Positions 1-45,346 of a stretch of 64,000 bases of DNA are shown here, piece by piece. The translations under genes were made by a program, and so were the position numbers. Under the pieces are notes generated by a model, which was given only the letters and a program-made list of their open reading frames with translations, was not told the origin of the DNA and searched no databases. The first letter of the stretch is position 1; each line of letters begins with the position of its first letter. This DNA comes from a virus (lineage: Duplodnaviria; Caudoviricetes), in IMG/VR virus record IMGVR_UViG_2744054855_000002, positions 1,399 through 65,398 of that record; one strand, 5' to 3'.

Positions 1-23
1 GCCATGTTTCACAGGAGGTCCTC

Positions 24-206
24 ATGGCCACTATCCAGATCATGTCCGTTGTCGGCAGCGCCGTCCCCACTCCACTGCGTGAGCAGGGCCTGCTGGCGTG
101 CTGGTACCTGGTACGCAACGGCGAAGCCGTGAGCGGGCCGATGCCATCCCTTGCCTCGGCCCAAGCCCTGGCTGAACAGTTGCAACCAGGCGTCCTGGTG
201 GCCTGA
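24..206 (+). CDS. small hypothetical protein (60 aa)
   Basis: AGGAGG RBS before ATG; followed by a terminator. Confidence 0.7.
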   Translation: MATIQIMSVVGSAVPTPLREQGLLACWYLVRNGEAVSGPMPSLASAQALAEQLQPGVLVA

Positions 207-243
207 CCCGAATTTGTTGTGCGTTGCTCCCTACGCCCTTATG

Positions 244-270
244 GCCCGCCAATTTGGCGGGCTTTTTTTT
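244..270 (+). terminator. rho-independent terminator
   Basis: GCCCGCC-AATTT-GGCGGGC followed by T8. Confidence 0.8.
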
Positions 271-301
271 GTTTTTGCCGGCCCTGTCACTCAGTGTTGG
301 C

Positions 302-616
302 TCAGCGTTGTGAGCTACGCCGCAGCTGGCTGGTCAGCGCCAGCACTTTGCCTTGCAGCCGCCCTACGGTCAGCACCAGATCGTTGCGCTCCCTGGCGAG
401 CTGATCAGCTTTGGCTTCTGCCTCTCGCCGGGCGTCCCGCTCAATGTCCAGCAACTCGGTCAGGCGGCGGATAACTGCAATATCTGCGTTGTCCATCGCA
501 CGCTCGGCTGCATCCCGGGACAGCCACTTGCGCAGCCATAGAAATGCACCTAGCAACACAGTGCCCGTGCCGCTCAGCCAAGTGACTGTGCCCGGGCCGA
601 GGTCGGTCGGATCCAT
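302..616 (-). CDS. phage holin-like membrane/coiled-coil protein, paralog of 36356-36727
   Basis: MDPTDLGPGT..WL.GTGTVLLG.FLWLRK..S.DAA.RAMDNADI shared with the prophage late gene; GAGG RBS. Confidence 0.75.
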   Translation of the reverse strand: MDPTDLGPGTVTWLSGTGTVLLGAFLWLRKWLSRDAAERAMDNADIAVIRRLTELLDIERDARREAEAKADQLARERNDLVLTVGRLQGKVLALTSQLRRSSQR

Positions 617-695
617 GTAAACCTCATTACCGATGATGATGCGACGAGCCCTGGACAAAAATGTCTCAGTGGCTTTTCTTGTTGATGGATTTAAT

Positions 696-760
696 TTAGC
701 CTATAGCTAACATTGCAACAAGAGCTAATTTAGCCATGCGCACATTTAGCAACAAGCTAA
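696..760. promoter_or_regulatory. OR-like operators TTAGC-N5-GCTAA (696-710, 746-760)
   Basis: two perfect 15-bp inverted repeats between the divergent holin-like and repressor genes. Confidence 0.7.
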
Positions 761-780
761 ACACTGGCATGCTTCGTCCT

Positions 781-1605
781 ATGGACATCTACGACATTCG
801 CAAGCACAACCTGGTCAAGCTTATCGGCAGCCAGAAGAAGGGATCCTGCGCAGAACGCTGGGGGATGGCGCCTGCACACCTGAGCCAGATTCTTTCCGAC
901 AAGACCGCGAAAAACCTGGGCGATGATGTGGCCCGCAGAATCGAGGGCGTCGAAGGCCTGCCCCGGGGTTGGTTCGACGCACTGTCGGCAGGCGACCCCG
1001 TGCAGCCGTCGGTCGAAGCGGGCGAAGGCAAGCTTTCGGCGGCCGACCTGGTCAAGCAGATGCTTGCCCGAAGCGGCAAGGGCATCCCTGAAGAAACCCG
1101 GCAAAGGTTGCTGGCCGCTGCAGAAGAACCTCAGGATGCCACGCTGATAAAGGCTGACTTTGTTCGCCCGGGCCTGGTCGGTGACGAAGTGTGGATTGCC
1201 CACTACGATGTGCGGGCCGCCATGGGCGGTGGCCAGATCCCCCACGACTACCCCGAGATGTTCAAGGACGTTCGCGTCAGCCCCAGCCATCTTCGCGAGC
1301 TGGGTGTGGCGTTCGCTGAACACCACCACCTGAAGATGATCACCGGCTGGGGCCAGTCGATGGAGCCGACCATCAAGCACCGCGACCCGCTGATCGTCGA
1401 TGTCAGCATCCGCGAGTTTGTCGGCGATGGCATCTACTTCTTCTCCTGGGGTGATCACATCTATATCAAGCGATTGCAGATCGCTGACGATGACCACTTC
1501 GAGATGATTTCCGACAACTCGCGGCACAAGGACCGCATGATTCGCCGGGAAGAAACCTACATTCAGGCCAGGGTGCTCTTGGTGTGGAATGCGCACCTGG
1601 TATGA
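781..1605 (+). CDS. CI/LexA-like repressor (HTH + S24 autopeptidase)
   Basis: N-terminal HTH; C-terminal GQSMEP (Ser) and IKRL (Lys); C-terminal domain highly similar to 44504-45346; start could be 769 or 781. Confidence 0.9.
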   Translation: MDIYDIRKHNLVKLIGSQKKGSCAERWGMAPAHLSQILSDKTAKNLGDDVARRIEGVEGLPRGWFDALSAGDPVQPSVEAGEGKLSAADLVKQMLARSGKGIPEETRQRLLAAAEEPQDATLIKADFVRPGLVGDEVWIAHYDVRAAMGGGQIPHDYPEMFKDVRVSPSHLRELGVAFAEHHHLKMITGWGQSMEPTIKHRDPLIVDVSIREFVGDGIYFFSWGDHIYIKRLQIADDDHFEMISDNSRHKDRMIRREETYIQARVLLVWNAHLV

Positions 1606-1610
1606 AGCCG

Positions 1611-1634
1611 AAGCCCGCCACCCAGGCGGGCTTT
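1611..1634. terminator. terminator hairpin between convergent genes
   Basis: AAGCCCGCC-ACCCA-GGCGGGCTTT. Confidence 0.65.
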
Positions 1635-1643
1635 GCATAACGC

Positions 1644-1967
1644 TCAGAAAGGCGCTGCCGCTTCAACCTCCTCCTTGCTGAACTGCTCGACGATAAAGTC
1701 GTCACGCTCCTCCACACTGCTACGCTCCCAGCGCACGGTGACGCTTTCGTCGTCGTTGAACGTCAGGTCCAACTCAGGCGTGTCGGACAGCAGGCCCATC
1801 ACTTCCTCCCACTCCGCATCACCATCGGTATCCAGGCGATGCACAACGACCCAGCGCTGCGTCTGTGCGAGCGGGTGGTTGATCATCGACGACACCCGCA
1901 GGCCAAGCCGCTCTACTCCGGTCATTTCCTGATGTTGCTGGGGTGCAGCCTTCATGTGCTTAGACAT
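1644..1967 (-). CDS. DUF1654-like protein, paralog of 46381-46707
   Basis: ERLGLRVSSMINHP.AQ.QRWV..HRLDTDGD.EWEEVMGLL shared by both copies. Confidence 0.85.
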   Translation of the reverse strand: MSKHMKAAPQQHQEMTGVERLGLRVSSMINHPLAQTQRWVVVHRLDTDGDAEWEEVMGLLSDTPELDLTFNDDESVTVRWERSSVEERDDFIVEQFSKEEVEAAAPF

Positions 1968-1983
1968 ATTCTCATCCTGATAG

Positions 1984-1999
1984 CTGTATATTCGTACAG
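1984..1999. promoter_or_regulatory. LexA (SOS) box
   Basis: CTGTATATTCGTACAG matches CTG-N10-CAG, just upstream of the DUF1654 gene. Confidence 0.75.
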
Positions 2000-2093
2000 T
2001 GCTCGACGAGAGCTTATCTCACCGCCAAATCCAGCGTAAAGCCCTGTCACAGAAAAATTTCGCCAGCAGGTAATTTGTCTCAGAGCGATTTTT

Positions 2094-2136
2094 TTAGCTG
2101 ATAGCTATTGACCATATTTTAGCCTTTGGCTAATGT
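2094..2136 (+). promoter_or_regulatory. pL-like sigma70 promoter overlapped by two operators
   Basis: TTGACC (2108-2113)-17 bp-TAATGT (2131-2136); operators TTAGC-TGATA-GCTAT (2094-2108) and TTAGC-CTTTG-GCTAA (2119-2133). Confidence 0.75.
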
Positions 2137-2208
2137 TCGATTCGGCAGCCAGATGCAAGGCTGCTCGATCGGTTCATCCTTCAAGCCACTTTTTTGTCAG
2201 GAGCCCCC

Positions 2209-2883
2209 ATGACCGTACACATCAGCAACCTCACCATCGCCACCCCGGTGGCCGTCTCCTCAACCAATCCTATAGCACTCGAACTCAACGGTGCCGAAGC
2301 GATCGCGCGGTTGCCGAGTGTGGTAACGGTACTCAGCGATGGCTCGATCCAGCTTTCAGCCCCTACCAAAGGTGCTTCGAGCAAAAGCACCCACAGGACC
2401 CGCTGCGAGTGGACAGAAACCGAAGACTGGACATTGTCCAGCGCCCAGGATCACTGGAATCGCCAAACCATGACCCTGACCAAGGTCAACTCGGCGCTGA
2501 AGGTGGTGATCGCCCAGATGCACGTGCGTGGGGATGACAGCCCGCCGGTGAAGGTGTTCTGGAACAAAGGCAACATTACCCTGGGGTTTCGGCGGACCTA
2601 CAACCAGACCGACCCGGTGAACTCGACCGTGCTCAAAGGGGTGCCTCTGGGGGCGCAGTTCAACGTGAGCATCCACACCACGTCTGCAGGCGTGGTGAAT
2701 GTAACGGCCAAATGCAACGGGGTGTCCGGCGCCTCTGGTGATTTACAGCTCGACAGCACTTGGGCGTCGCGCCTGTTCGAATTCCACGGCGGCATCTACA
2801 ACCAGGTTGACTACACCGATGCAACGCCGGCCACTGACGGCTCGGTCTGCATCATCAGCGAGCTCTCGCTGATCCATCGCTGA
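2209..2883 (+). CDS. polysaccharide lyase family 7 (alginate lyase-like), no signal peptide
   Basis: PL7-type motifs RTRCE, QMH and FHGGIYNQ; AGGAG RBS. Confidence 0.8.
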   Translation: MTVHISNLTIATPVAVSSTNPIALELNGAEAIARLPSVVTVLSDGSIQLSAPTKGASSKSTHRTRCEWTETEDWTLSSAQDHWNRQTMTLTKVNSALKVVIAQMHVRGDDSPPVKVFWNKGNITLGFRRTYNQTDPVNSTVLKGVPLGAQFNVSIHTTSAGVVNVTAKCNGVSGASGDLQLDSTWASRLFEFHGGIYNQVDYTDATPATDGSVCIISELSLIHR

Positions 2884-3069
2884 GCGTCGAAAGCCGGCAA
2901 CGCATCCCGATGTCCCGCCCGTCACAAATGGCATCGGGACGCCGGCTAACCAAAAGCGCGTGGTTGACACGCGTGACACGCCACGCCATTGATTAGTCTC
3001 GATGAGTCATATTGTTGCCTACCCGCTCTCAGACTAATAATTAGCTATCTGCCTGGGGAGGTGCGAAAC

Positions 3070-3306
3070 ATGCAACCAAGATTCGTTATCGTTCCTGCTG
3101 TGCCAGTGGAAGGCGAGTCCTTCTGCATTGGCAACCGGTTCTATGCCGCTACAACTTCGGGCGGCTTCGATATCTACGACAACCAGGAGAAACAGCGGCT
3201 CAAGCGCGGCTTTATCAACAAGTCCGAGGCCGCGACTGCGTGCGCATTGATGAACGCCGAATCACGCAATCCAGCGGCGCAGTTCCCGATCTTGCGCACA
3301 GATTGA
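3070..3306 (+). CDS. small hypothetical protein, similar to 34854-35045
   Basis: GGAGG RBS; shared RF..V.A.P.EG and G..I.D..E..RL...F.N..EA...C...N pattern. Confidence 0.7.
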   Translation: MQPRFVIVPAVPVEGESFCIGNRFYAATTSGGFDIYDNQEKQRLKRGFINKSEAATACALMNAESRNPAAQFPILRTD

Positions 3307-3716
3307 TGTGCGGTATCACGCTGCCTTAACGCTAGCGGCAGCAGCGGACCAGTCCACCCGGTGAAGCGGCAGGAAACAGGCGCTCGAAAGGGCTTGCAGT
3401 GTCAAGTCGCCGTGCCGTAAATTTGCCCGATCCTGTCATTCCTGCTGGTGTTGAGGAGTGACGCTGAAGCCCAACACTCAGTTGGGCTTTTTCGTTTTTG
3501 CGACAGGGCGATTTTTCAATGGTGTGCCGATTGTTGCGATTCATTAAAAGAAAGTTCTCAAGAATGCTGCGAAAGTGGTTTGTATACCTCGTGGTTGCAG
3601 GGCTGGCGGGTAACTACAGCCGATTGTTCGATCATCTTTCAATCTGGAAACCTTGGCGCTTGGCCAAGGGCGTAGCGGCCTACCTCATCGCATCCTGACG
3701 CGTCATTCACGCGGCG

Positions 3717-3756
3717 CAGGATTAAATTTCGGTCACCTTGCGCCCTTCAGTCATAA
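3717..3756 (+). repeat. truncated third copy of the int-end/att-proximal sequence
   Basis: CAGGATTAAATTTCGGTCACCTTGCGCCCTTCAGTCATAA matches about 5108-5147 and 62936-62975. Confidence 0.8.
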
Positions 3757-3827
3757 CGCATAGGATCCAATGGCAGGCTTTGACTTCGGCGGGATATCAT
3801 CAGGTCTTCGGAGGATAGGGGGCTGAT

Positions 3828-4187
3828 ATGAAACCATGGATTGGGATAGTACTCGTAACCGCGCTGAGTGGATGCGGAACCGTTCGCACGGTGTCGGAAG
3901 AGTCGAAAGCCGTGGGCGATCTGGCTGAATGGAACTCGTACTGCCCAGCCATCCCTCGGGTGTACAGCGGCGTTGCCTACCAGTTTTGCAACTTAACTGG
4001 GCCGGAAAGAACGGGAATACATTCGGACCCGTATGAAATCTTGGTCGACATGGCCGCATCTTGTATTGCTGATACCGTTGTGCTGCCATACACCAGCTAT
4101 AAGCAATACAAATACGGCAATATGGTGATTCCGAGCTTCAGCCTGCAGATGCATCAAGAACCGGCTCAGTCAGGCGGCTCGAAATGA
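3828..4187 (+). CDS. YceK/YidQ-like lipoprotein
   Basis: lipobox LSGC-GTV; RVYSGV and D...S..ADTVVLPYT motifs. Confidence 0.75.
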   Translation: MKPWIGIVLVTALSGCGTVRTVSEESKAVGDLAEWNSYCPAIPRVYSGVAYQFCNLTGPERTGIHSDPYEILVDMAASCIADTVVLPYTSYKQYKYGNMVIPSFSLQMHQEPAQSGGSK

Positions 4188-4384
4188 CAGTAGCCTCGCG
4201 GCTGTAACCCTTCAGAACCTGAGCTACGCGGACCTAGCCATCGAGAACTGCCTCAACTGTAACCAGCGTGGTTGGTCTCCAGGTGAAAAAACGCCCACGC
4301 TTGGCGTGGCAATGGCGTGGCAATGGCGTGTCGTTGTCAAAGGCGAACTCGTCTCAAATCAACCATACAATGGATGAGATATCT

Positions 4385-4573
4385 ATGGGCAAAGGAGTTT
4401 TGGTGGGGCTAGTGATTGTTCTATCCGGGTGTAATCACTACTTCAATAGCCCTTATGGAAGTCGTTGGGATCAGCGAAACCTACCGTGCAATGCCACCCC
4501 TCCAAACCAACCAGGGTGCTATGACAGTGAGCACCAAGAGGGGCTTCTGAACAGGCTACTTGATGCTCACTAA
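4385..4573 (+). CDS. small lipoprotein
   Basis: hydrophobic signal ending LSGC. Confidence 0.6.
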   Translation: MGKGVLVGLVIVLSGCNHYFNSPYGSRWDQRNLPCNATPPNQPGCYDSEHQEGLLNRLLDAH

Positions 4574-4739
4574 GCAACCGGCACACCTCATTCTGCGGGC
4601 CTGGTTGGCGACTCTGTAGTCAATACTCAGGTTGACGACGACAACATGGGCTTTCTCCACGCGATAGAGGCAGGCTACTCCGGACAACAGTGCCTTAGCT
4701 GGTGGAATGATCGCCAGTACTAGGCCCTTGCAAAGGTCA

Positions 4740-4880
4740 TCATTCAACCTCCTTTTCGGCTGGGTCCTGAACAGTTACGGTCACGGTTGCCCGGTACTCG
4801 CTCAGCACCTGAGCCACCAGCACCTGGGCGGCCGGGAACTACTGCCGGATTTCCCGGCCTTTAGGCAACGTCGACTTCAC
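4740..4880 (-). pseudogene. decayed copy of the small tail-associated gene 9613-9837
   Basis: reads REIRQ*FPAAQVLVAQVLSEYRATVTVTVQDPAE versus REILTQFPAAQVCVAQVLKDYTAKVSISAKDPAE; internal stop. Confidence 0.75.
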
Positions 4881-4939
4881 CTGACCAGTCCACCGCGTTC
4901 ATCATGACAGCGTGTTGCCCTGCTGAGAGACGGTAGAGG

Positions 4940-5116
4940 TATGCCACGATGTGCCTCATGTCGGGGATGAATCCAGCGTTTATTGCTGGGCAGCTTGGCC
5001 ACTCGGTGCAGGTGCTTCTCTCGACCTACACAAAGTGGTTGAATTCTGCCAACGATTGGGCGGAACTGGCAGAACTGGAAAAGAACGTGATTGGTACAGA
5101 ATTGGTAAAGGATTAA
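4940..5116 (+). pseudogene. 3' remnant of a related phage integrase
   Basis: YATMCLMSGMNPAFIAGQLGHSVQVLLSTYTKWLNSANDWAELAELEKNVIGTELVKD; 51 of 58 aa identical to 62768-62944 by manual count. Confidence 0.9.
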
Positions 5117-5119
5117 ATT

Positions 5120-5179
5120 TCGTTCACCTTGCGCCCTTTAGTCATAAGGCATTCGACAGCAAATCAGCCATACTCCAGA
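5120..5179 (+). repeat. attL region; probable core TCAGCCATACTCCAGA (5164-5179)
   Basis: 60-bp direct repeat of 62948-63007 with 2 mismatches; the sequences diverge immediately after. Confidence 0.85.
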
Positions 5180-5282
5180 GATGTTTTCCGCGTTTTGAAG
5201 AGTTTCGCAAAGCGGAGAAAGCCCGTATTTACGGGCCCTCCAGCCCTCCCCGCAACACTCCATCCCCCTCCAAAACACAGCC

Positions 5283-5303
5283 ATTGGTACAAAAATTGGT
5301 ACG
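5283..5303 (+). promoter_or_regulatory. putative integrase arm-type sites (ATTGGTAC x2)
   Basis: the same tandem occurs at 62918-62937 and 5090-5109, on the other side of the core. Confidence 0.65.
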
Positions 5304-5466
5304 AGCCGGCTGTACGTCCATCCAGCACATTCCAGTACTGCAGCAGTAGCGTGAGATTCGGACATCAGGCCGCGCCACATGCGGCCTGCACTTAGCCCCT
5401 GTCTAATACAGTTCAGTCAGTTTCAGTGACTTTGACCCAGTAAAAACGAGAAGCTTTCGAGCAGTT

Positions 5467-5778
5467 TTAGACAGCTTTAGCACCCCATCCAGGCGTCCTG
5501 CCAACCACGATCCGTCCTGGGTCGTCGCTTACACCCTCCTCCCACAATTCATACTTGAACAGGCCAATGTGATAGGCCTCTTCGAACTCCATCAACCCCC
5601 AGGCCCTCGCCGCCTCGGACAGCTCCAGCATGTCAACCAGGTTCTCGGCGCTGACCTCTCGCCGACGATGGGCGGCATAGGCCATCTCATCGAGCACGGC
5701 AGCGCGCCCGTCCGGATCGGTGATCAGGGCGAACTGGTCGTTCAGCTCATCAAGCCAAGCCTGCGGTATCCCGGCCAT
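5467..5778 (-). CDS. hypothetical protein, second gene of an SOS-boxed operon
   Basis: ORF translationally coupled to 5778-6071. Confidence 0.7.
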
Positions 5779-6071
5779 CATTCTGCCCTGCACCACCAGG
5801 ACTGCGCGTACAGCACGCCGTCGATCTCCTCGACCCCGTTAATGTTCATCCCGAGCTGGGCCATGCCGTTGACCTTGGCGTCGTGCAGCCGCGGGATGAT
5901 GTCGGGTCCTGGCGTCGGATTGAACACCCAGGCCTGGGTCGACACCCGGCCAAGCGGCTCACTGTGGTGGTCACCTATATGGATGTCAGCCCGCAGGGGT
6001 TGGATCTTTCTGAGCTGATCGGAAGGGATGGCCACGCCATTCACGCGGCGGCGAACGAGGAGGAAATACAT
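5778..6071 (-). CDS. hypothetical protein (MYFLLVRRR...)
   Basis: ORF directly downstream of a LexA box. Confidence 0.75.
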
Positions 6072-7071: not shown

Positions 7072-7566
7072 TCATTTAATCAGCGCATTATAGGACGCTT
7101 CGCAGGCCTGGCCCGCTATTCGGGCTTGGTCATAAGCTTTCGCCAACTCTCCCGCTCGAGCATCAGCCCGTGCGAACAGCTCGGAGAGCACCATGGCGGC
7201 GCGGGTGGCTGCCTCGCCTCTGGCGACAGCGGCGGTATTCGTGCCGGCGCAACTGACGGCGGCGGCGAGCTGGGTGGCGTCACTGCGCAGCCGCTGGCCA
7301 GAAGCATCGGCGTCAGCAGCGCCAGCATCAGCAATCGTTCTTTCTTCCTGGGCATAGGCTCTCGCCTCCTCCTGCGCCTCGGCGCGTCGTTGTTCTTCCT
7401 GCCGGGCACCGCGCTCGCCGATGACCTCGGCCAGCCGATCACCACTGTCACGTTGCGCTGACGCTTGGCCGGCAACCGCGCGCTCCACCGACCGGCCATG
7501 CTGGTAGGCGCCCCAGTAGGACGTCACCACAAGGACCAAGGCTGCGGTCTTGACCCAGCCTTTCAC
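7072..7566 (-). CDS. rz: i-spanin (Rz-like, DUF2514-like)
   Basis: N-terminal TM plus coiled coil, overlapping the endolysin stop. Confidence 0.85.
   Translation of the reverse strand: MKGWVKTAALVLVVTSYWGAYQHGRSVERAVAGQASAQRDSGDRLAEVIGERGARQEEQRRAEAQEEARAYAQEERTIADAGAADADASGQRLRSDATQLAAAVSCAGTNTAAVARGEAATRAAMVLSELFARADARAGELAKAYDQARIAGQACEASYNALIK
7116..7355 (-). CDS. rz1: o-spanin lipoprotein embedded in the i-spanin gene
   Basis: MPRKKERLLMLALLTPMLLASGC lipobox, Pro-rich, alternate frame. Confidence 0.8.
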   Translation of the reverse strand: MPRKKERLLMLALLTPMLLASGCAVTPPSSPPPSVAPARIPPLSPEARQPPAPPWCSPSCSHGLMLERESWRKLMTKPE

Positions 7567-8102
7567 GCCGCCATCTCCCCGCCGCAGGCGCTGAACATCG
7601 CAAGCAGCTGATCTTGTGGCTTGGCCTCGACCGCCCTCTCCGCTTCGTAGATGCCCAGCAGCGCGGCCAGCTTGTGCTCGCGCTGGCCATAGCCAGCACC
7701 GGGCAGACTGGCCCAGATCGGGGCAGCCTTGGCGATCGCTTCGGCAATGCGGCCGGCCTTGATGAGCGGCAGCGCGCCGCACTCCGTCAGCAACTTGATT
7801 GCAGCCAGGTCCTGGGCCTCGGGAATGAAACGGCCCTTGAAACCATAGTTCTTCACGATGGCGTCCCAGGTGCCGGCGAGGAACTGATACCGGCCGGCAG
7901 CGGAGCTGTAGATGCTGTACTTCGGCAGCCACACCTTCACCTTAGGGTGCTTGCTGTAGTCGCTGAACAGCTTCCCGCCCACCAGGACGTTGTACCCGTC
8001 GTCACTGGCCTTGATAGTCGAAGTGCCTTCGGACCAGGCCAGCATGTCCAGGAAGGCAATCACGTTTACGCCGCCAGCACCCGCGGCAGGAATTCGGGCC
8101 AT
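7563..8102 (-). CDS. endolysin, lambda R-type lysozyme/transglycosylase
   Basis: AFLDMLAWSEGT, SAAGRYQFL and WASLPGAGYGQ motifs. Confidence 0.92.
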   Translation of the reverse strand: MARIPAAGAGGVNVIAFLDMLAWSEGTSTIKASDDGYNVLVGGKLFSDYSKHPKVKVWLPKYSIYSSAAGRYQFLAGTWDAIVKNYGFKGRFIPEAQDLAAIKLLTECGALPLIKAGRIAEAIAKAAPIWASLPGAGYGQREHKLAALLGIYEAERAVEAKPQDQLLAMFSACGGEMAA

Positions 8103-36038: not shown

Positions 36039-36356
36039 CTAAGGCGATACGCGATTCAGGGCCTCATCAGCCTTGTCGGCCGCCTTGGTAGCGGTGGTCG
36101 CCGCCTTGGTTGCCTTCTCGGCTGCCGAACTGGTCTTGCGGGTCAGCTCATCCAGGCGATGGTCACGTTGCAGCGTGGCCTCGTCGTAGGCGGCGCGTAT
36201 CTCGGCGACCTGCTGGCGGTACGAATCTGCCAGCGCCCACTGACCCAGCTGGAAGCCGAAGAAGACCCCGCCGGTCACCAGCAGCATGGCGATGAACCAC
36301 ACTTCGACACGGCGCCACCAGTGGCGGGCCATGAACTGGATTGCGCACTTGTCCAT
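36039..36356 (-). CDS. membrane-anchored coiled-coil protein coupled to the holin-like gene
   Basis: single TM; TGATG overlap. Confidence 0.75.
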   Translation of the reverse strand: MDKCAIQFMARHWWRRVEVWFIAMLLVTGGVFFGFQLGQWALADSYRQQVAEIRAAYDEATLQRDHRLDELTRKTSSAAEKATKAATTATKAADKADEALNRVSP

Positions 36357-36727
36357 CAGGTAGTACCTCCCAGCTTGATGCGCAGACGGGCGATCTCGTC
36401 GCTTTGTAGCGTCACCCGCTCTGTGAGGTTGGCGACCTGACTGGTCAGGGCTTCGATCTTCCCTTCCATGCGGCCGACGGTTGCGGCCAGGTCATTGCGC
36501 TCTTTGGCGAACTGGTCGGCGCGGGCCTCGGCAAGCTTGCGGGCCTCACGCTCGGAGTCGAGGAGTTCATTCAGCCGGCGCACAGTGCCGATGTCGGCGT
36601 TATCCATGGCGCGATCAGCAGCGTCCTTGGATAGGAACTTGCGCAGCCAGAGGAAGCCGCCCAGCAATACAGTGCCCGTTCCGCCCAGCCAGGTAGCTGT
36701 GCCTGGGCCGAGGTCGGTTGGGTCCAT
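36356..36727 (-). CDS. holin-like protein, first late gene
   Basis: TM plus coiled coil, directly after the Q-like gene; holin function inferred from position. Confidence 0.7.
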   Translation of the reverse strand: MDPTDLGPGTATWLGGTGTVLLGGFLWLRKFLSKDAADRAMDNADIGTVRRLNELLDSEREARKLAEARADQFAKERNDLAATVGRMEGKIEALTSQVANLTERVTLQSDEIARLRIKLGGTT

Positions 36728-44438: not shown

Positions 44439-44511
44439 TAAGGCATTACCTTATCTCGCACAAGCCATTGCCTAATCGCTCTAGCCATAGGCCTAATTAG
44501 GCAATGCTTAC
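44439..44511. promoter_or_regulatory. OR operators (AGGCATTACCT-like, 3 copies)
   Basis: 44439-44453, 44461-44475, 44497-44511; same motif found at pL. Confidence 0.7.
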
Positions 44512-45346
44512 CGGACCAGAATTAGGCGCAGCCATTGATGCCGCGCGGATCGCCAAGGGCGTATCGAAGAAACAACTCGCAGACGACTTCCAGGTGAAGC
44601 CTCCGTCGGTGCAGGGCTGGGTGAAAAACGGCCGGATTGACAAGTCCAAGCTGATGGATGTGATCGTTTATTTTTCTGACGTGGTGGGCCCCGAGCACTG
44701 GGGGCTTCGGCCTGGCTTCTCTTACGAGAGCCTCCCGGAGGTCACTTCGGAGCCTGTCGCCGAGCCGGCGCCGGCCTCAGCTGCCGAAATGGTTCGCGCC
44801 ATGCTCGCCAAGCAAGGCAAGAACTTGTCGGATACAGCGCGCGCGCAGTTGATTGCAGCCGCCGAAGCGACTGATGAGGGAAATGTGATTACCGCAGACT
44901 TCTCTCGGCCTGGCCTGGTCGGTGATGAGGTTAGGATCGCTCACTACGACATCCGCGCGGCCATGGGCGGAGGCCAGATTCCGCACGATTACCCGGAGAT
45001 GCTCAAGGATATTCGCGTCAGTCCGAGCCATCTACGCGAGCTGGGGGTCGAGTTCGAGGAGCACTACCACCTGAAGGTCGTCACCGGATGGGGCCAGTCC
45101 ATGGAGCCCACCATCAAGCACCGCGACCCGCTGATCGTGAACATCAACGTCCGCGACTTCGTGGGCGATGGGGTGTACCTCTTCGTCTGGGATGACCTGC
45201 TCTACATCAAGCGCCTGCAGGTTGCTGATGAAGAGCACTACGAGATGATTTCGGACAACCCGCGACACAAGGATCGGCTGATCCGCCGGGACATGACCTA
45301 CATCCAGGCCCGGGTGCTGCTGGTGTGGAATGCGCACTTGGTTTAG
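44504..45346 (+). CDS. cI: prophage CI repressor (HTH + S24), probably leaderless
   Basis: HTH, GQSMEP and IKRL motifs; no SD before ATG. Confidence 0.92.
   Translation: MLTGPELGAAIDAARIAKGVSKKQLADDFQVKPPSVQGWVKNGRIDKSKLMDVIVYFSDVVGPEHWGLRPGFSYESLPEVTSEPVAEPAPASAAEMVRAMLAKQGKNLSDTARAQLIAAAEATDEGNVITADFSRPGLVGDEVRIAHYDIRAAMGGGQIPHDYPEMLKDIRVSPSHLRELGVEFEEHYHLKVVTGWGQSMEPTIKHRDPLIVNINVRDFVGDGVYLFVWDDLLYIKRLQVADEEHYEMISDNPRHKDRLIRRDMTYIQARVLLVWNAHLV

What the first reader, a model, noticed from the sequence alone, without database searches (positions are those of the whole stretch)
302..2883. Possibly domesticated phage switch controlling a holin-like gene and a cytoplasmic polysaccharide lyase
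Seen: outside the prophage, a 2.6-kb block copies the prophage immunity layout (repressor, convergent LexA-boxed DUF1654, then operator/-35/operator/-10). It has four TTAGC-N5-GCTA(A/T) palindromes (696, 746, 2094, 2119), and all four ORFs are open. There is no cro. The pL-equivalent promoter points straight at a PL7 lyase, and the opposite side faces a holin-like gene that in the prophage lies about 8 kb from cI. Known: RecA-cleavable phage-type repressors are co-opted for host lysis programs (PrtR and AlpR in P. aeruginosa). Inference: a minimal DNA-damage-inducible module that makes an alginate-degrading enzyme and may release it by permeabilisation or lysis, for example for biofilm remodelling.
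Basis: partly seen in the sequence, partly recalled or inferred. Interest (0 to 1): 0.85.

Follow-up and report, generated by a model that had tools for sequence, protein, structure and literature searches.

The report
Domesticated phage switch driving a lyase
A small leftover of an old phage, kept intact in about twenty Pseudomonas putida-group species, still carries the phage's repressor switch, which now appears to hold a sugar-polymer-cutting enzyme and a membrane (lysis-type) protein under DNA-damage control.

Summary
Four TTAGC-N5-GCTA(A/T) palindromes occur at 696, 746, 2094 and 2119 and nowhere else in the window (expected 0.03). All four ORFs are open, there is no cro, and the block lies outside the resident prophage (att repeats at 3718/5109/62937).

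The block is not sporadic or decaying. It sits at the same chromosomal site in 17 of 44 lyase-bearing species genomes. In an even sample of 401 Pseudomonas species, 10 of the 11 closest to the window carry it. The next relatives have an empty site.

- Every ORF checked is intact.
- dN/dS is 0.08-0.17 (flanking gene 0.06).
- Operator half-sites, promoter hexamers and the LexA box are invariant while spacers drift.

Viral contigs with the same repressor and operators show the parent layout: cro-like gene, repressor, DUF1654, pL, lyase. A deletion put the holin-like gene in cro's place. Three species keep an intact lambda-R-type endolysin behind it. A sister lyase clade carries a LexA box directly upstream (12 of 12).

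Best reading: a co-opted, cro-less, SOS-linked phage repressor module of the PrtR/AlpR/FddR kind with a new output. Induction, operator binding, lyase substrate and lyase release remain untested. The scan had noted PL7 genes behind pL in other phage DNA.

The parts
302..616 (-). Holin-like gene: 104 aa, one weakly hydrophobic N-terminal segment followed by a coiled coil. It sits in the slot where the parent phage has cro.
   Evidence: PHROG 2658 'hol-like chemotaxis', E 1.2e-34. No Pfam family. 72% aa to the prophage copy at 36356-36727. ATG 616 and its GAGG are conserved, and the ORF is intact in 15 of 15 loci that have it. dN/dS is 0.10 on codons 1-95. Maximum KD(19) is 1.34 at residues 10-28. 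In L029, L033 and L054 an intact endolysin gene follows it.
692..720 (-). Inferred promoter of the holin-like gene: TTGnnn (720-715), 17 nt, TAAATT (697-692).
   Evidence: TTG and AATTTA are invariant in the 15 loci that have the gene. The hexamers are my reading. The consensus scan did not call it.
696..710 (.). Operator palindrome TTAGCCTATAGCTAA, between -35 and -10 of the holin-like promoter.
   Evidence: Half-sites are invariant and the spacer varies.
730..744 (.). Weak third site TTAGCCATGCGCACA. Only the left half-site is conserved.
   Evidence: AATTTAGC(C/T) is invariant in the 15 loci with the holin-like gene. The right half matches 3 of 5. A role in autoregulation is inferred only.
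746..760 (.). Operator TTAGCAACAAGCTAA, overlapping the repressor's own -10 (TAAACA, 758-763).
   Evidence: It is kept in all 17 aligned loci, including the two aligned loci that lack the holin-like gene. It is also present before the P. vranovensis repressor and in viral contigs.
769..1605 (+). CI-type repressor of 274-278 aa: near-invariant N-terminal DNA-binding head, variable linker, S24 peptidase domain. The mRNA may be leaderless from ATG 769.
   Evidence: Pfam S24, E 1.2e-17. PHROG 4, 6201 and 5736. Intact in 17 of 17 loci. dN/dS 0.077. S193 and K230 are invariant, and AAMGGG stands where Ala-Gly is expected.
1613..1631 (.). GC-rich hairpin between the convergent repressor and DUF1654 genes, terminator-like.
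   Evidence: Read directly. The terminator scan did not list it because there is no long T run.
1644..1967 (-). DUF1654 gene, 107 aa, convergent to the repressor.
   Evidence: Pfam, E 1.7e-27. Intact in 17 of 17 loci. dN/dS 0.17. Acidic tail ending in an invariant APF.
1984..1999 (.). LexA (SOS) box CTGTATATTCGTACAG, 16 nt before the DUF1654 start codon.
   Evidence: CTGT-N8-ACAG is present in 19 of 19 block loci at the same place.
2011..2040 (-). Inferred DUF1654 promoter: TTTACG, 18 nt, TAAGCT.
   Evidence: The stretch 2010-2045 is almost invariant in 17 loci. The hexamers are my reading.
2094..2108 (.). Operator TTAGCTGATAGCTAT, abutting the -35 of the lyase promoter.
   Evidence: 19 of 19 loci, spacer varies.
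2109..2137 (+). pL-equivalent promoter: TTGACC, 17 nt, TAATGT.
   Evidence: TTGAC is invariant, and TAA of the -10 is the end of the operator half-site. It matches 8 of 12, below the scan's threshold.
2119..2133 (.). Operator TTAGCCTTTGGCTAA, between -35 and -10 of the lyase promoter.
   Evidence: 19 of 19.
2209..2883 (+). PL7-family lyase of 224 aa, without a signal peptide.
   Evidence: Pfam Alginate_lyase2 covers residues 4-223. PA1167/1VAV, E 5e-9. RTRCEW, QMH and G(V/I)YNQ are each kept in 18 of 18. dN/dS 0.16. No K/R in the first 10 residues.
3070..3306 (+). Small 78-aa ORF with an Arm-DNA-binding domain. It is an accessory part kept in a subset of species.
   Evidence: Pfam, E 2.7e-6. 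85-97% in L005-L008 and L011. Not similar to the resident integrase.
3718..3761 (.). att-like 44-nt repeat that ends the conserved island. Later phages integrate here.
   Evidence: Copies at 3718, 5109 and 62937. In L005 the island ends here and the Peptidase_S11 (pbpG-like) gene follows.

Best explanation
The block is the stripped-down remnant of a lambdoid Pseudomonas prophage. That phage entered between a small host gene and a pbpG-like gene in the ancestor of one clade of the P. putida group. The remnant has since been inherited vertically under purifying selection.

**What it keeps from the phage.**
- The CI-type S24 repressor and its TTAGC-N5-GCTAA operators.
- The LexA-boxed DUF1654 gene.
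- The first gene of the phage's pL operon, a signal-less PL7 lyase.
- A late-operon holin-like gene. A deletion removed cro and everything up to this gene, which brought it under the pR-side promoter. In some species a lambda-R-type endolysin follows it.

**Inferred mechanism.**
- Repressor dimers sit on an operator placed between -35 and -10 at both outward promoters. The -10 begins in the TAA of the half-site. This holds the lyase and the holin-like gene off.
- The repressor autoregulates through the operator over its own -10.
- DNA damage lifts repression, most likely by RecA*-stimulated self-cleavage. LexA cleavage turns on DUF1654 at the same time.
- Without cro the switch is not bistable. 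It resets when repressor is remade.
- Output is a burst of cytoplasmic lyase plus a membrane-active protein. With an endolysin, whether in the block or from co-induced prophages or tailocins, the lyase would be released.

**Shown versus inferred.** Shown: anatomy, phage origin, conservation and selection. Inferred: operator binding, induction, lyase activity and release.
For: **Operators.** They are unique to the block.

**Conserved at one chromosomal site.**
- The same four-gene order and the same flanks occur in 17 of 44 lyase-bearing species genomes. 15 of those have the holin-like gene.
- Among 401 evenly sampled Pseudomonas species, 11 have a left flank at least 87% identical. 10 of the 11 hold the block and the eleventh (G201) has a decayed copy.
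- The 10 genomes with an 80-84% flank hold none. The 4 of them that I fetched show the two host genes about 85 bp apart.

**Under selection and inherited vertically.**
- ORFs intact: repressor 17/17, DUF1654 17/17, lyase 17/17, holin-like 15/15.
- Median dN/dS: 0.077, 0.172, 0.159 and 0.153, against 0.064 for the flank gene, with dS 0.5-0.7.
- Block distances track flank distances: rho 0.66, Mantel 0 of 2000.
- The block lyases form one clade, support 99/98.

**Regulatory sites footprinted.**
- Half-sites, TTGAC, the -10 starts and the LexA box are invariant while the 5-nt spacers vary (19 of 19).
- In a closely related strain, the operator differences among the 40 of 60 differences listed all lie in spacers.

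**Phage origin.** Viral contigs L070, L071, L072 and L075 have a repressor 82-84% identical over full length, plus DUF1654 and the lyase. In the three searched for operators (L070, L071, L075) the half-sites are the same. In L071 a cro-like gene (phrog_35) sits where the block has the holin-like gene.

**SOS link.**
- S193 and K230 are invariant.
- The sister lyase clade has CTGT-N8-ACAG about 136 nt before the lyase in 12 of 12 loci, with no repressor.
- L030 pairs the lyase with a heteroimmune repressor, DUF1654 and a LexA box.
- P. vranovensis keeps the same-head repressor and the same operators at its lyase promoter 3.5 kb away.

**Lysis link.** An intact 161-aa endolysin lies right behind the holin-like gene in L029, L033 and L054, with dN/dS 0.08-0.17.
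Against: - **No expression or binding data.** RNA-library contigs span the whole region as 5-7 kb pieces and say nothing about transcription.
- **Weak promoters.** The hexamers are below the consensus scan's threshold, which found 0.
- **Cleavage site.** The expected Ala-Gly is replaced by an invariant AAMGGG, so RecA*-dependent self-cleavage is not assured.
- **Holin-like protein.** It belongs to no Pfam holin family and its hydrophobic segment is marginal, KD 1.34. In the resident prophage an endolysin and a spanin lie elsewhere, at 7.0-8.1 kb.
- **Loss of lysis parts.** The window's block has no endolysin. L036, L037 and L053 lack the holin-like gene. G201 has lost the repressor, the lyase and most of DUF1654.
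- **Lyase.** It departs from the canonical YFKAG motif (reads EFHGG), and its substrate is unknown.
- **DUF1654.** Its role is unknown. Mutants of DUF1654 genes in P. fluorescens were reported as cisplatin-sensitive (passage read, 10.1101/072470). That fits a protective role rather than an inducer.
Confidence: 0.7

Rival explanations
1. The repressor is kept mainly as superinfection immunity, a defence against phages that use the same operators. The operators at the two outward promoters are kept only to silence leftover, potentially harmful phage genes. The lyase has no host role.
For: Homoimmune phages exist. Viral contigs L070, L071, L072 and L075 carry repressors 82-84% identical, with identical operator half-sites in the three searched, L070, L071 and L075. 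The DNA-binding head is the most conserved part of the protein. In block-bearing genomes of the 401-genome sample, second repressor copies match only the C-terminal domain.
Against: The lyase is intact in 17 of 17 loci, with dN/dS 0.16 and its catalytic motifs kept in 18 of 18. A useless, harmless passenger should decay. The rep-DUF1654-lyase core is what survives when the holin-like gene is lost (L036, L037, L053). Related lyases are wired separately to LexA (12 of 12), which points to a host use for damage-induced lyase. Immunity and a host output are not exclusive.
Confidence: 0.15
2. The anatomy is the same, but induction does not go through RecA*-driven self-cleavage. LexA-controlled DUF1654 is the inducer (an antirepressor, as Tum is for coliphage 186) or a co-regulator of the S24 repressor (as DdrR is for UmuDAb in Acinetobacter).
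For: The LexA box before DUF1654 is kept in 19 of 19 loci. DUF1654 lies 1-3 kb from repressors with this C-terminal domain in many other genomes. There is no canonical Ala-Gly. The P. vranovensis repressor lacks both the 35-residue middle segment and a DUF1654 neighbour. DdrR/UmuDAb is known to me from the abstract listing. Tum is recalled.
Against: The S24 Ser and Lys are invariant, which a non-cleaving repressor would not need. Loss of DUF1654 genes made P. fluorescens more cisplatin-sensitive, the opposite of what loss of an inducer of lysis genes predicts.
Confidence: 0.12
3. It is an inert prophage scar that is merely young or hitch-hiking, with no function of its own.
For: The block lies beside an att hotspot with layered phage scars. 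IMG/VR files the whole record as a provirus. One species (G201) has deleted most of it.
Against: It has diverged as much as the flank (dS 0.6-0.7), yet every ORF checked in the 17 loci is intact and dN/dS is 0.08-0.17. Non-coding operators and boxes are invariant while their spacers vary.
Confidence: 0.03

Closest known systems
PrtR (with PrtN) control of pyocin genes, and AlpR (with AlpA) control of the alpBCDE lysis genes, in Pseudomonas aeruginosa (recalled, not checked in a call)
   Same: A chromosomal CI/LexA-like S24 repressor of phage descent ties DNA damage to phage-derived genes, including a lysis cassette.
   Different: No intermediate activator or antiterminator gene (PrtN or AlpA type) was seen in the block. 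The repressor's operators sit directly in the output promoters. The outputs are a PL7 lyase and a single holin-like gene, with an endolysin in only three species. A LexA-boxed DUF1654 gene is built in. No sequence relationship to PrtR or AlpR was tested.
FddR of Francisella, a co-opted phage S24 repressor (abstract read, PMC13148647)
   Same: A phage repressor recruited as a genus- or clade-wide DNA-damage regulator. It is autoregulated through a palindrome and acts on divergently transcribed genes.
   Different: FddR acts where canonical SOS genes are not damage-induced and the LexA-family protein is highly diverged, and it binds GTG-N11-CAC. Here LexA boxes are present alongside, the motif is TTAGC-N5-GCTAA, and the regulated genes are phage cargo.
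Lambdoid immunity region (CI, OR/OL, cro, pL/pR)
   Same: Repressor with an S24 domain, operators overlapping outward promoters on both sides, and a possible leaderless repressor mRNA. Homoimmune phages with cro exist.
   Different: There is no cro, so no bistable switch. There are two full operators on the lyase side, and two plus a half-site on the other side, not three. The module has no N, replication or integration genes.
Coliphage 186 Tum (LexA-controlled antirepressor; recalled) and Acinetobacter UmuDAb-DdrR (abstract listing)
   Same: A small DNA-damage-induced protein is encoded beside an SOS-type or phage repressor.
   Different: DUF1654 has no detected similarity to either. Its fold search gave no match at E <= 0.001. 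The published phenotype of DUF1654 genes points to protection.
PA1167, the PL7 alginate lyase of P. aeruginosa (PDB 1VAV)
   Same: About 220 aa, a single PL7 domain, no room for a signal peptide. The R-x-E, Q-x-H and G-x-Y-x-Q motifs are present.
   Different: Only a distant match (E 5e-9). YFKAG reads EFHGG. This lyase clade is tied to phage repressors or LexA boxes.

Membership tests
LexA/CI-type self-cleaving S24 repressors | C-terminal Peptidase_S24 domain | tested here: met
   Pfam PF00717, E 1.2e-17, 64 bits against a cut-off of 23.3.
LexA/CI-type self-cleaving S24 repressors | Catalytic Ser and Lys | tested here: met
   S193 (in GQSMEPT) and K230 (in IKRL) are invariant in 20 of 20 aligned repressors. 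Assigning these as the catalytic pair rests on recalled motifs.
LexA/CI-type self-cleaving S24 repressors | Ala-Gly (or Cys-Gly) cleavage site before the S24 core | tested here: inconclusive
   An invariant AAMGGG (SMGSG in P. vranovensis) stands at the expected place. There is no Ala-Gly there. Ala-Gly pairs do occur in the variable linker.
LexA/CI-type self-cleaving S24 repressors | RecA*-stimulated cleavage | not testable with these tools
   Needs an in vitro or in vivo cleavage assay.
Co-opted (domesticated) phage repressor modules (PrtR/AlpR/FddR kind) | Chromosomal, fixed across species, and present without a functional prophage | tested here: met
   17 of 44 lyase loci. 10 of the 11 nearest species in a 401-genome sample. 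L005 has an empty att site.
Co-opted (domesticated) phage repressor modules (PrtR/AlpR/FddR kind) | Purifying selection on the repressor, its sites and its targets | tested here: met
   dN/dS 0.077-0.172. Half-sites invariant while spacers vary.
Co-opted (domesticated) phage repressor modules (PrtR/AlpR/FddR kind) | Damage-dependent derepression of the targets | not testable with these tools
   RNA-library contigs were uninformative.
Polysaccharide lyase family 7 | PL7 domain over the full length | tested here: met
   PF08787, E 4.1e-45, profile positions 2-225 of 225. 1VAV, E 5e-9.
Polysaccharide lyase family 7 | Catalytic Arg, Gln, His and Tyr (motifs R-x-E, Q-I/V-H, YFKAGxYxQ; recalled) | tested here: inconclusive
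   RTRCEW, QMH and G(V/I)YNQ are each kept in 18 of 18. The first Tyr and the Lys of YFKAG are replaced (EFHGG).
Polysaccharide lyase family 7 | Lyase activity on alginate or another polyuronate | not testable with these tools
   Needs an enzyme assay.
Holins | Small membrane protein with at least one transmembrane segment | tested here: inconclusive
   There is one segment, residues 10-28, with KD(19) of 1.34. It is Gly/Thr-rich, with an acidic N-end and basic residues after it.
Holins | Membership of a described holin family | tested here: not met
   No Pfam hit at E <= 1. The only hit is PHROG 2658, labelled 'hol-like chemotaxis'. The Atlas neighbours are automatic names only.
Holins | Sits in a lysis cassette next to an endolysin | tested here: met
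   In L029, L033 and L054 an intact endolysin (phrog_90, E 1.7e-48 for the window paralogue) starts about 66 nt after its stop (measured in L029). In the prophage an Rz-like gene follows it. In phiPSA1 an annotated lipoprotein gene follows it.
LexA regulon (for DUF1654) | SOS box CTGT-N8-ACAG in the promoter region | tested here: met
   19 of 19 block loci, 16 nt before the start codon.

The most novel reading that the evidence does not exclude
In the P. putida group, cutting a uronate polymer is a regular arm of the DNA-damage response. One lyase family has been wired to the SOS signal at least three separate ways: a co-opted phage repressor with TTAGC operators, a heteroimmune phage repressor, and a plain LexA box. 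In the block-bearing clade a cro-less phage switch fires the lyase together with a holin-type protein, and in some species an endolysin. Damaged cells would then open up and release an enzyme that loosens the matrix, to the benefit of kin, tailocins or phage. DUF1654, with its SSB-tip-like acidic ...APF tail, would set the threshold of this response.
Probability: 0.3. Interest if true: 0.8.

Novelty: new variant of a known kind. Interest (0 to 1): 0.68.

Why it matters
Co-opted phage repressors that tie DNA damage to self-lysis or bacteriocin release are known from a few model cases. This one is a compact, clade-wide example whose evolutionary steps can still be read:
- the parent phages survive in metagenomes;
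- relatives with the empty site exist;
- species at successive stages of loss exist (endolysin, then holin-like gene, then everything).

It links the SOS response to a polysaccharide lyase. Four full-text searches found no paper describing that link, and sister lyases with LexA boxes support it independently. It offers a simple four-site operator system for testing how a bistable phage switch becomes a plain inducible regulon. It also gives a defined context for the unknown, LexA-controlled DUF1654 family.

Tried and rejected
**RNA evidence.** Runs X1, X2, X3 and X5 were laid on window 1-3800. They cover it with single 5-7 kb contigs that cross intergenic regions. This says nothing about transcription, starts or induction. 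I used only the strain differences.

**Complex prediction (repressor with DUF1654).** No verdict.

**DUF1654 fold.** AlphaFold2 gave pLDDT 75.9 with a helix-helix-strand-helix-strand-strand core. Foldseek against the PDB found no match at E <= 0.001, only weak winged-helix-like rows.

**Solved relatives of the repressor.** None at E <= 0.01.

**Small ORF 3070-3306 as a stump of the resident integrase.** No significant similarity.

**Rfam on 1-5500.** Only sub-threshold hits.

**RNAalifold on the lyase leader.** No consensus structure, although a GCAGCC...GGCTGC hairpin is visible by eye.

**'relatives' mode of the genome search.** It returned the same genus-wide sample, so it did not help with within-clade prevalence. 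I used flank identity instead.

**Consensus promoter scan.** 0 sites. My promoter calls rest on conservation plus partial hexamer matches.

**Protein Atlas for the holin-like protein.** Automatic names only ('putative chemotaxis protein' 0.95, a cluster named DUF2730 0.93). These are leads, not evidence.

**Literature.**
- DUF1654: 2 papers, both read as passages.
- LexA + P. putida + alginate lyase + SOS: 2 irrelevant papers.
- LexA1/LexA2 + putida: 5 papers, judged from the listing only.
- PL7 + SOS response: 1 irrelevant paper.
- PA1167: 41 papers, 12 listed, all enzymology by title.
- Supplements were closed. A fitness or transcriptome table could hold data on these genes.

**Unpublished genomes.** G155 and G103 enter only the tallies 172 of 401 and 65 of 401. 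No specific claim rests on them.

Full report
**1. What is in the sequence**

The window is bases 1399-65398 of an IMG/VR record filed as a provirus. The 1398 bases to its left hold host genes, including a shikimate-dehydrogenase-like ORF.

The block contains these ORFs:
- An ORF at 302-658(-) with no Pfam family. It matches PHROG 2658, labelled 'hol-like chemotaxis'.
- A Peptidase_S24 repressor at 736-1605(+).
- A DUF1654 gene at 1644-1967(-).
- A full-length PL7 (Alginate_lyase2) gene at 2194-2883(+).

The pattern TTAGC-N5-GCTAW hits four sites, at 696, 746, 2094 and 2119. It hits nowhere else in 64 kb. The expectation is 0.03, and 0 of 100 shuffles reach the count. A perfect SOS box, CTGTATATTCGTACAG, lies at 1984-1999, 16 nt before the DUF1654 start codon.

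Alignment with orthologues corrects two starts:
- The repressor begins at ATG 769 or 781, because ATG 736 is not conserved.
- The holin-like gene begins at ATG 616, giving 104 aa.

**2. The block is outside the resident prophage**

A 44-nt direct repeat stands at 3718, 5109 and 62937. The last copy follows the integrase gene at 61751-62944. The middle copy follows a 3' integrase fragment.

The intact prophage therefore spans about 5109-62980. Between 3718 and 5152 lies an older scar. The block sits to the left of all of this.

Three block genes have paralogues in the prophage:
- The repressor's C-terminal 185 residues are 72% identical, while the N-terminal heads are unrelated.
- DUF1654 is 74% identical at nucleotide level.
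- The holin-like gene is 72% identical at amino-acid level.

**3. Distribution**

A scan of one genome per species found the lyase in 44 loci, all of them Pseudomonas.
- 17 loci have the repressor (85-99% aa), DUF1654 and the lyase in the same order.
- 15 of those also have the holin-like gene.
- The 15 of these 17 whose contigs reach that far share the same left flank.
- In L005 one 94% alignment runs from the left flank through the block to 3761. It then continues directly into window 62936-64000, a Peptidase_S11 (pbpG-like) gene. That is the block with an empty att site.

I also searched an even sample of 401 Pseudomonas species with the block and with the left flank.
- 11 genomes have a flank at least 87% identical.
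- 10 of the 11 hold the block. G186 lacks the holin-like gene.
- The eleventh, G201, has a decayed copy. The repressor, most of DUF1654 and the lyase are deleted, while the holin-like gene and the small ORF are kept.
- The 10 genomes with an 80-84% flank have no block.
- In the 4 of these that I fetched, the terminator of the small left-hand gene lies about 85 bp from the pbpG-like region.

The block is therefore one insertion, fixed in one clade.

**4. Selection**

- In the 17 loci the ORFs are intact: repressor 17/17, DUF1654 17/17, lyase 17/17, holin-like 15/15.
- Nei-Gojobori medians of dN/dS are 0.077 (repressor), 0.172 (DUF1654), 0.159 (lyase) and 0.153 (holin-like). The flanking host gene gives 0.064. 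dS is 0.5-0.7 throughout.
- Codons 1-95 of the holin-like gene give 0.105 in the 12 sequences that have no endolysin beside them. Its last 10-25 codons are variable.
- Pairwise distances of the block track those of the flank: rho 0.66, with 0 of 2000 Mantel permutations as high.
- The 20 block lyases form one clade with support 99/98.

**5. Footprints in the non-coding DNA**

In both intergenic regions the half-sites TTAGC and GCTA never vary, while the five spacer bases differ from species to species. Counting over 19 loci gives 19 of 19 for both lyase-side operators and for the LexA box.

The following also do not vary:
- TTGAC of the lyase -35.
- The run GCTAA+nTT that forms the lyase -10.
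- AATTTA upstream of the holin-like gene.
- GCTAAACACTGGCATGC before the repressor.

Read together, three promoters share one design. An operator lies in the spacer, and the -10 begins in the TAA of the operator's right half-site:
- P_lya: TTGACC, 17 nt, TAATGT.
- P_hol: TTGnnn, 17 nt, TAAATT.
- P_rep: -10 TAAACA, seven bases before ATG 769, which suggests a leaderless mRNA.

These hexamer calls are mine. The consensus scan found none at its 9-of-12 threshold.

A closely related strain, seen in sequencing-run contigs, differs at 61 of 3702 positions. Of the 40 of 60 differences listed, those inside operators (704, 752, 2101, 2102, 2124, 2126, 2127) all lie in spacers.

**6. Origin**

Viral contigs hold the lyase in 21 loci.
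- Three (L061, L062, L064) are the same block at the edge of a provirus call.
- Four (L070, L071, L072, L075) have a repressor 82-84% identical over its full length, plus DUF1654 and the lyase in the same order.
- In the three of these searched for sites (L070, L071, L075), operators with the same half-sites stand on both sides, and a LexA box stands before DUF1654.
- In L071 a 78-aa cro-like gene (phrog_35, E 1e-7) sits exactly where the block has the holin-like gene. A leader of about 430 nt precedes the lyase, and further early genes follow it.
- Three more (L065, L066, L068) combine a heteroimmune repressor with DUF1654 and the lyase.

The lyase as first pL gene is therefore a phage arrangement. 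The block derives from such a phage by deletions. One deletion ran from just past pR to the first late gene and placed the holin-like gene under pR.

Earlier notes of this scan had flagged PL7 genes behind pL in other phage DNA. bear that out for this family.

**7. The lysis connection**

- In the prophage the holin-like gene lies between a 181-aa protein of unknown family and an Rz-like spanin.
- In phage phiPSA1 the homologue precedes an annotated lipoprotein gene.
- In L029, L033 and L054, and in the provirus record L064, an intact 161-aa ORF follows the holin-like gene. In L029 it starts about 66 nt after the stop.
- That ORF is 72-74% identical to the prophage gene 7563-8102, which matches phrog_90 'endolysin' at E 1.7e-48.
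- Among these copies dN/dS is 0.08-0.17.

This gene order is the best argument that the 104-aa protein is a holin-type protein. Against that:
- No described holin family matches it.
- Its hydrophobic segment is marginal, KD 1.34.

The pattern across species reads as stepwise loss of lysis parts. Three species keep the endolysin. The holin-like gene is lost in L036, L037 and L053. The repressor-DUF1654-lyase core stays.

**8. The SOS connection**

- The repressor's S193 and K230 are invariant in 20 aligned sequences, and its head (residues 1-65) is almost invariant. An invariant AAMGGG stands where Ala-Gly is expected.
- The lyase family is tied to DNA damage in other ways too. In the sister clade, at another chromosomal site, 12 of 12 loci carry CTGT-N8-ACAG about 136 nt before the lyase. 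They have no repressor and no DUF1654.
- A more distant clade at that same site has no such box (0 of 4).
- L032 also has a LexA box.
- L030 has a 42%-identical repressor, DUF1654, a LexA box and different palindromes.
- P. vranovensis has a same-head S24 repressor with its own TTAGC...GCTAA site. Its lyase promoter, 3.5 kb away, has the same operator layout.

**9. The lyase**

- The PL7 domain fills residues 4-223, so there is no room for a signal peptide. There is no K or R in the first ten residues.
- The closest solved relative is PA1167, at E 5e-9.
- RTRCEW, QMH and G(V/I)YNQ are each kept in 18 of 18 orthologues. The canonical YFKAG reads EFHGG.
- The substrate is unknown.

**10. DUF1654**

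- The 21 aligned sequences end in an acidic tail with an invariant APF. From memory, this resembles the tip of SSB.
- The predicted core is small and mixed alpha/beta, and has no clear structural relative.
- A preprint reports that DUF1654 genes of P. fluorescens are important for resisting cisplatin and are predicted LexA targets (passage read).
- This argues against a simple inducer role.

**11. Verdict**

This is a co-opted, cro-less phage repressor module, probably SOS-responsive. It belongs to the known kind represented by:
- PrtR and AlpR (recalled);
- FddR (abstract read).

Its output set is new, and its evolutionary history is unusually legible.

Binding, induction, enzyme activity and release are all still inferred.

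Noticed in passing
window 1644-1967(-); alignment A1: All 21 DUF1654 proteins end in an acidic, predicted-disordered tail with an invariant C-terminal Ala-Pro-Phe. From memory this resembles the acidic ...IPF tip of SSB that recruits repair and replication proteins.
   Followed up: partly
window 2138-2208; L071 4930-5000; L016 5900-6000: The lyase has a conserved leader. Phage contigs, the LexA-boxed sister clade and several other contexts share a ~65-nt stretch with a GGATGCG...CGCATCC hairpin ending in TTTTATCGTCAGGAG. The block has a different hairpin (GCAGCC...GGCTGC) at the same place. RNAalifold gave no consensus.
   Followed up: partly
L016-L028, L039 (about 136 nt before the lyase start at 6001): A sister clade of the lyase at another chromosomal site has a strict LexA box directly upstream in 12 of 12 species, behind a terminator-like hairpin (seen in L016 and L026). 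This looks like a directly SOS-regulated PL7 lyase. In L016, HigB/HigA-like genes follow the lyase.
   Followed up: partly
L044 (P. vranovensis) 1728-2433 and 5912-5950: A same-head S24 repressor and the operator-flanked lyase promoter are separated by three ORFs totalling 3.5 kb, which I did not scan. It looks like a regulon link kept across an insertion, with no DUF1654.
   Followed up: partly
L056 (G201) 1790-3200: A natural decay stage. The holin-like gene and the small Arm-domain ORF are kept. The repressor is reduced to a 48-nt scrap. The DUF1654 5' end and the LexA box are kept. The lyase is gone.
   Followed up: yes
window 3718-5152: Between two att copies lie a DUF1375 lipoprotein-like gene (3828-4187), another small ORF (4268-4573) and a 3' integrase fragment (4931-5116, 86% to 62759-63007). 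These are layered integration scars.
   Followed up: partly
window 781-1605 and 44504-45346: The block's repressor and the resident prophage's repressor share 72% identity over the last 185 residues but have unrelated heads. Both would meet the same inducing signal, and mixed dimers are conceivable.
   Followed up: partly
window 7072-8102(-): The prophage has an endolysin (phrog_90) and a DUF2514 Rz-like spanin near its left end, far from the holin-like and Rz-like pair at 36.0-36.7 kb. Its lysis functions seem to be split over two places.
   Followed up: partly
L077-L080 (viral contigs of 170-250 kb): Very large viral contigs carry a PL7 homologue 56-59% identical to the block's lyase, with no repressor or DUF1654 found within the 5-kb flanks searched.
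   Followed up: no
L017 4907-5575 and 6001-6669: Two PL7 lyase genes in tandem, 59% and 83% identical to the window's lyase. They belong to the two different clades found at that chromosomal site.
   Followed up: no
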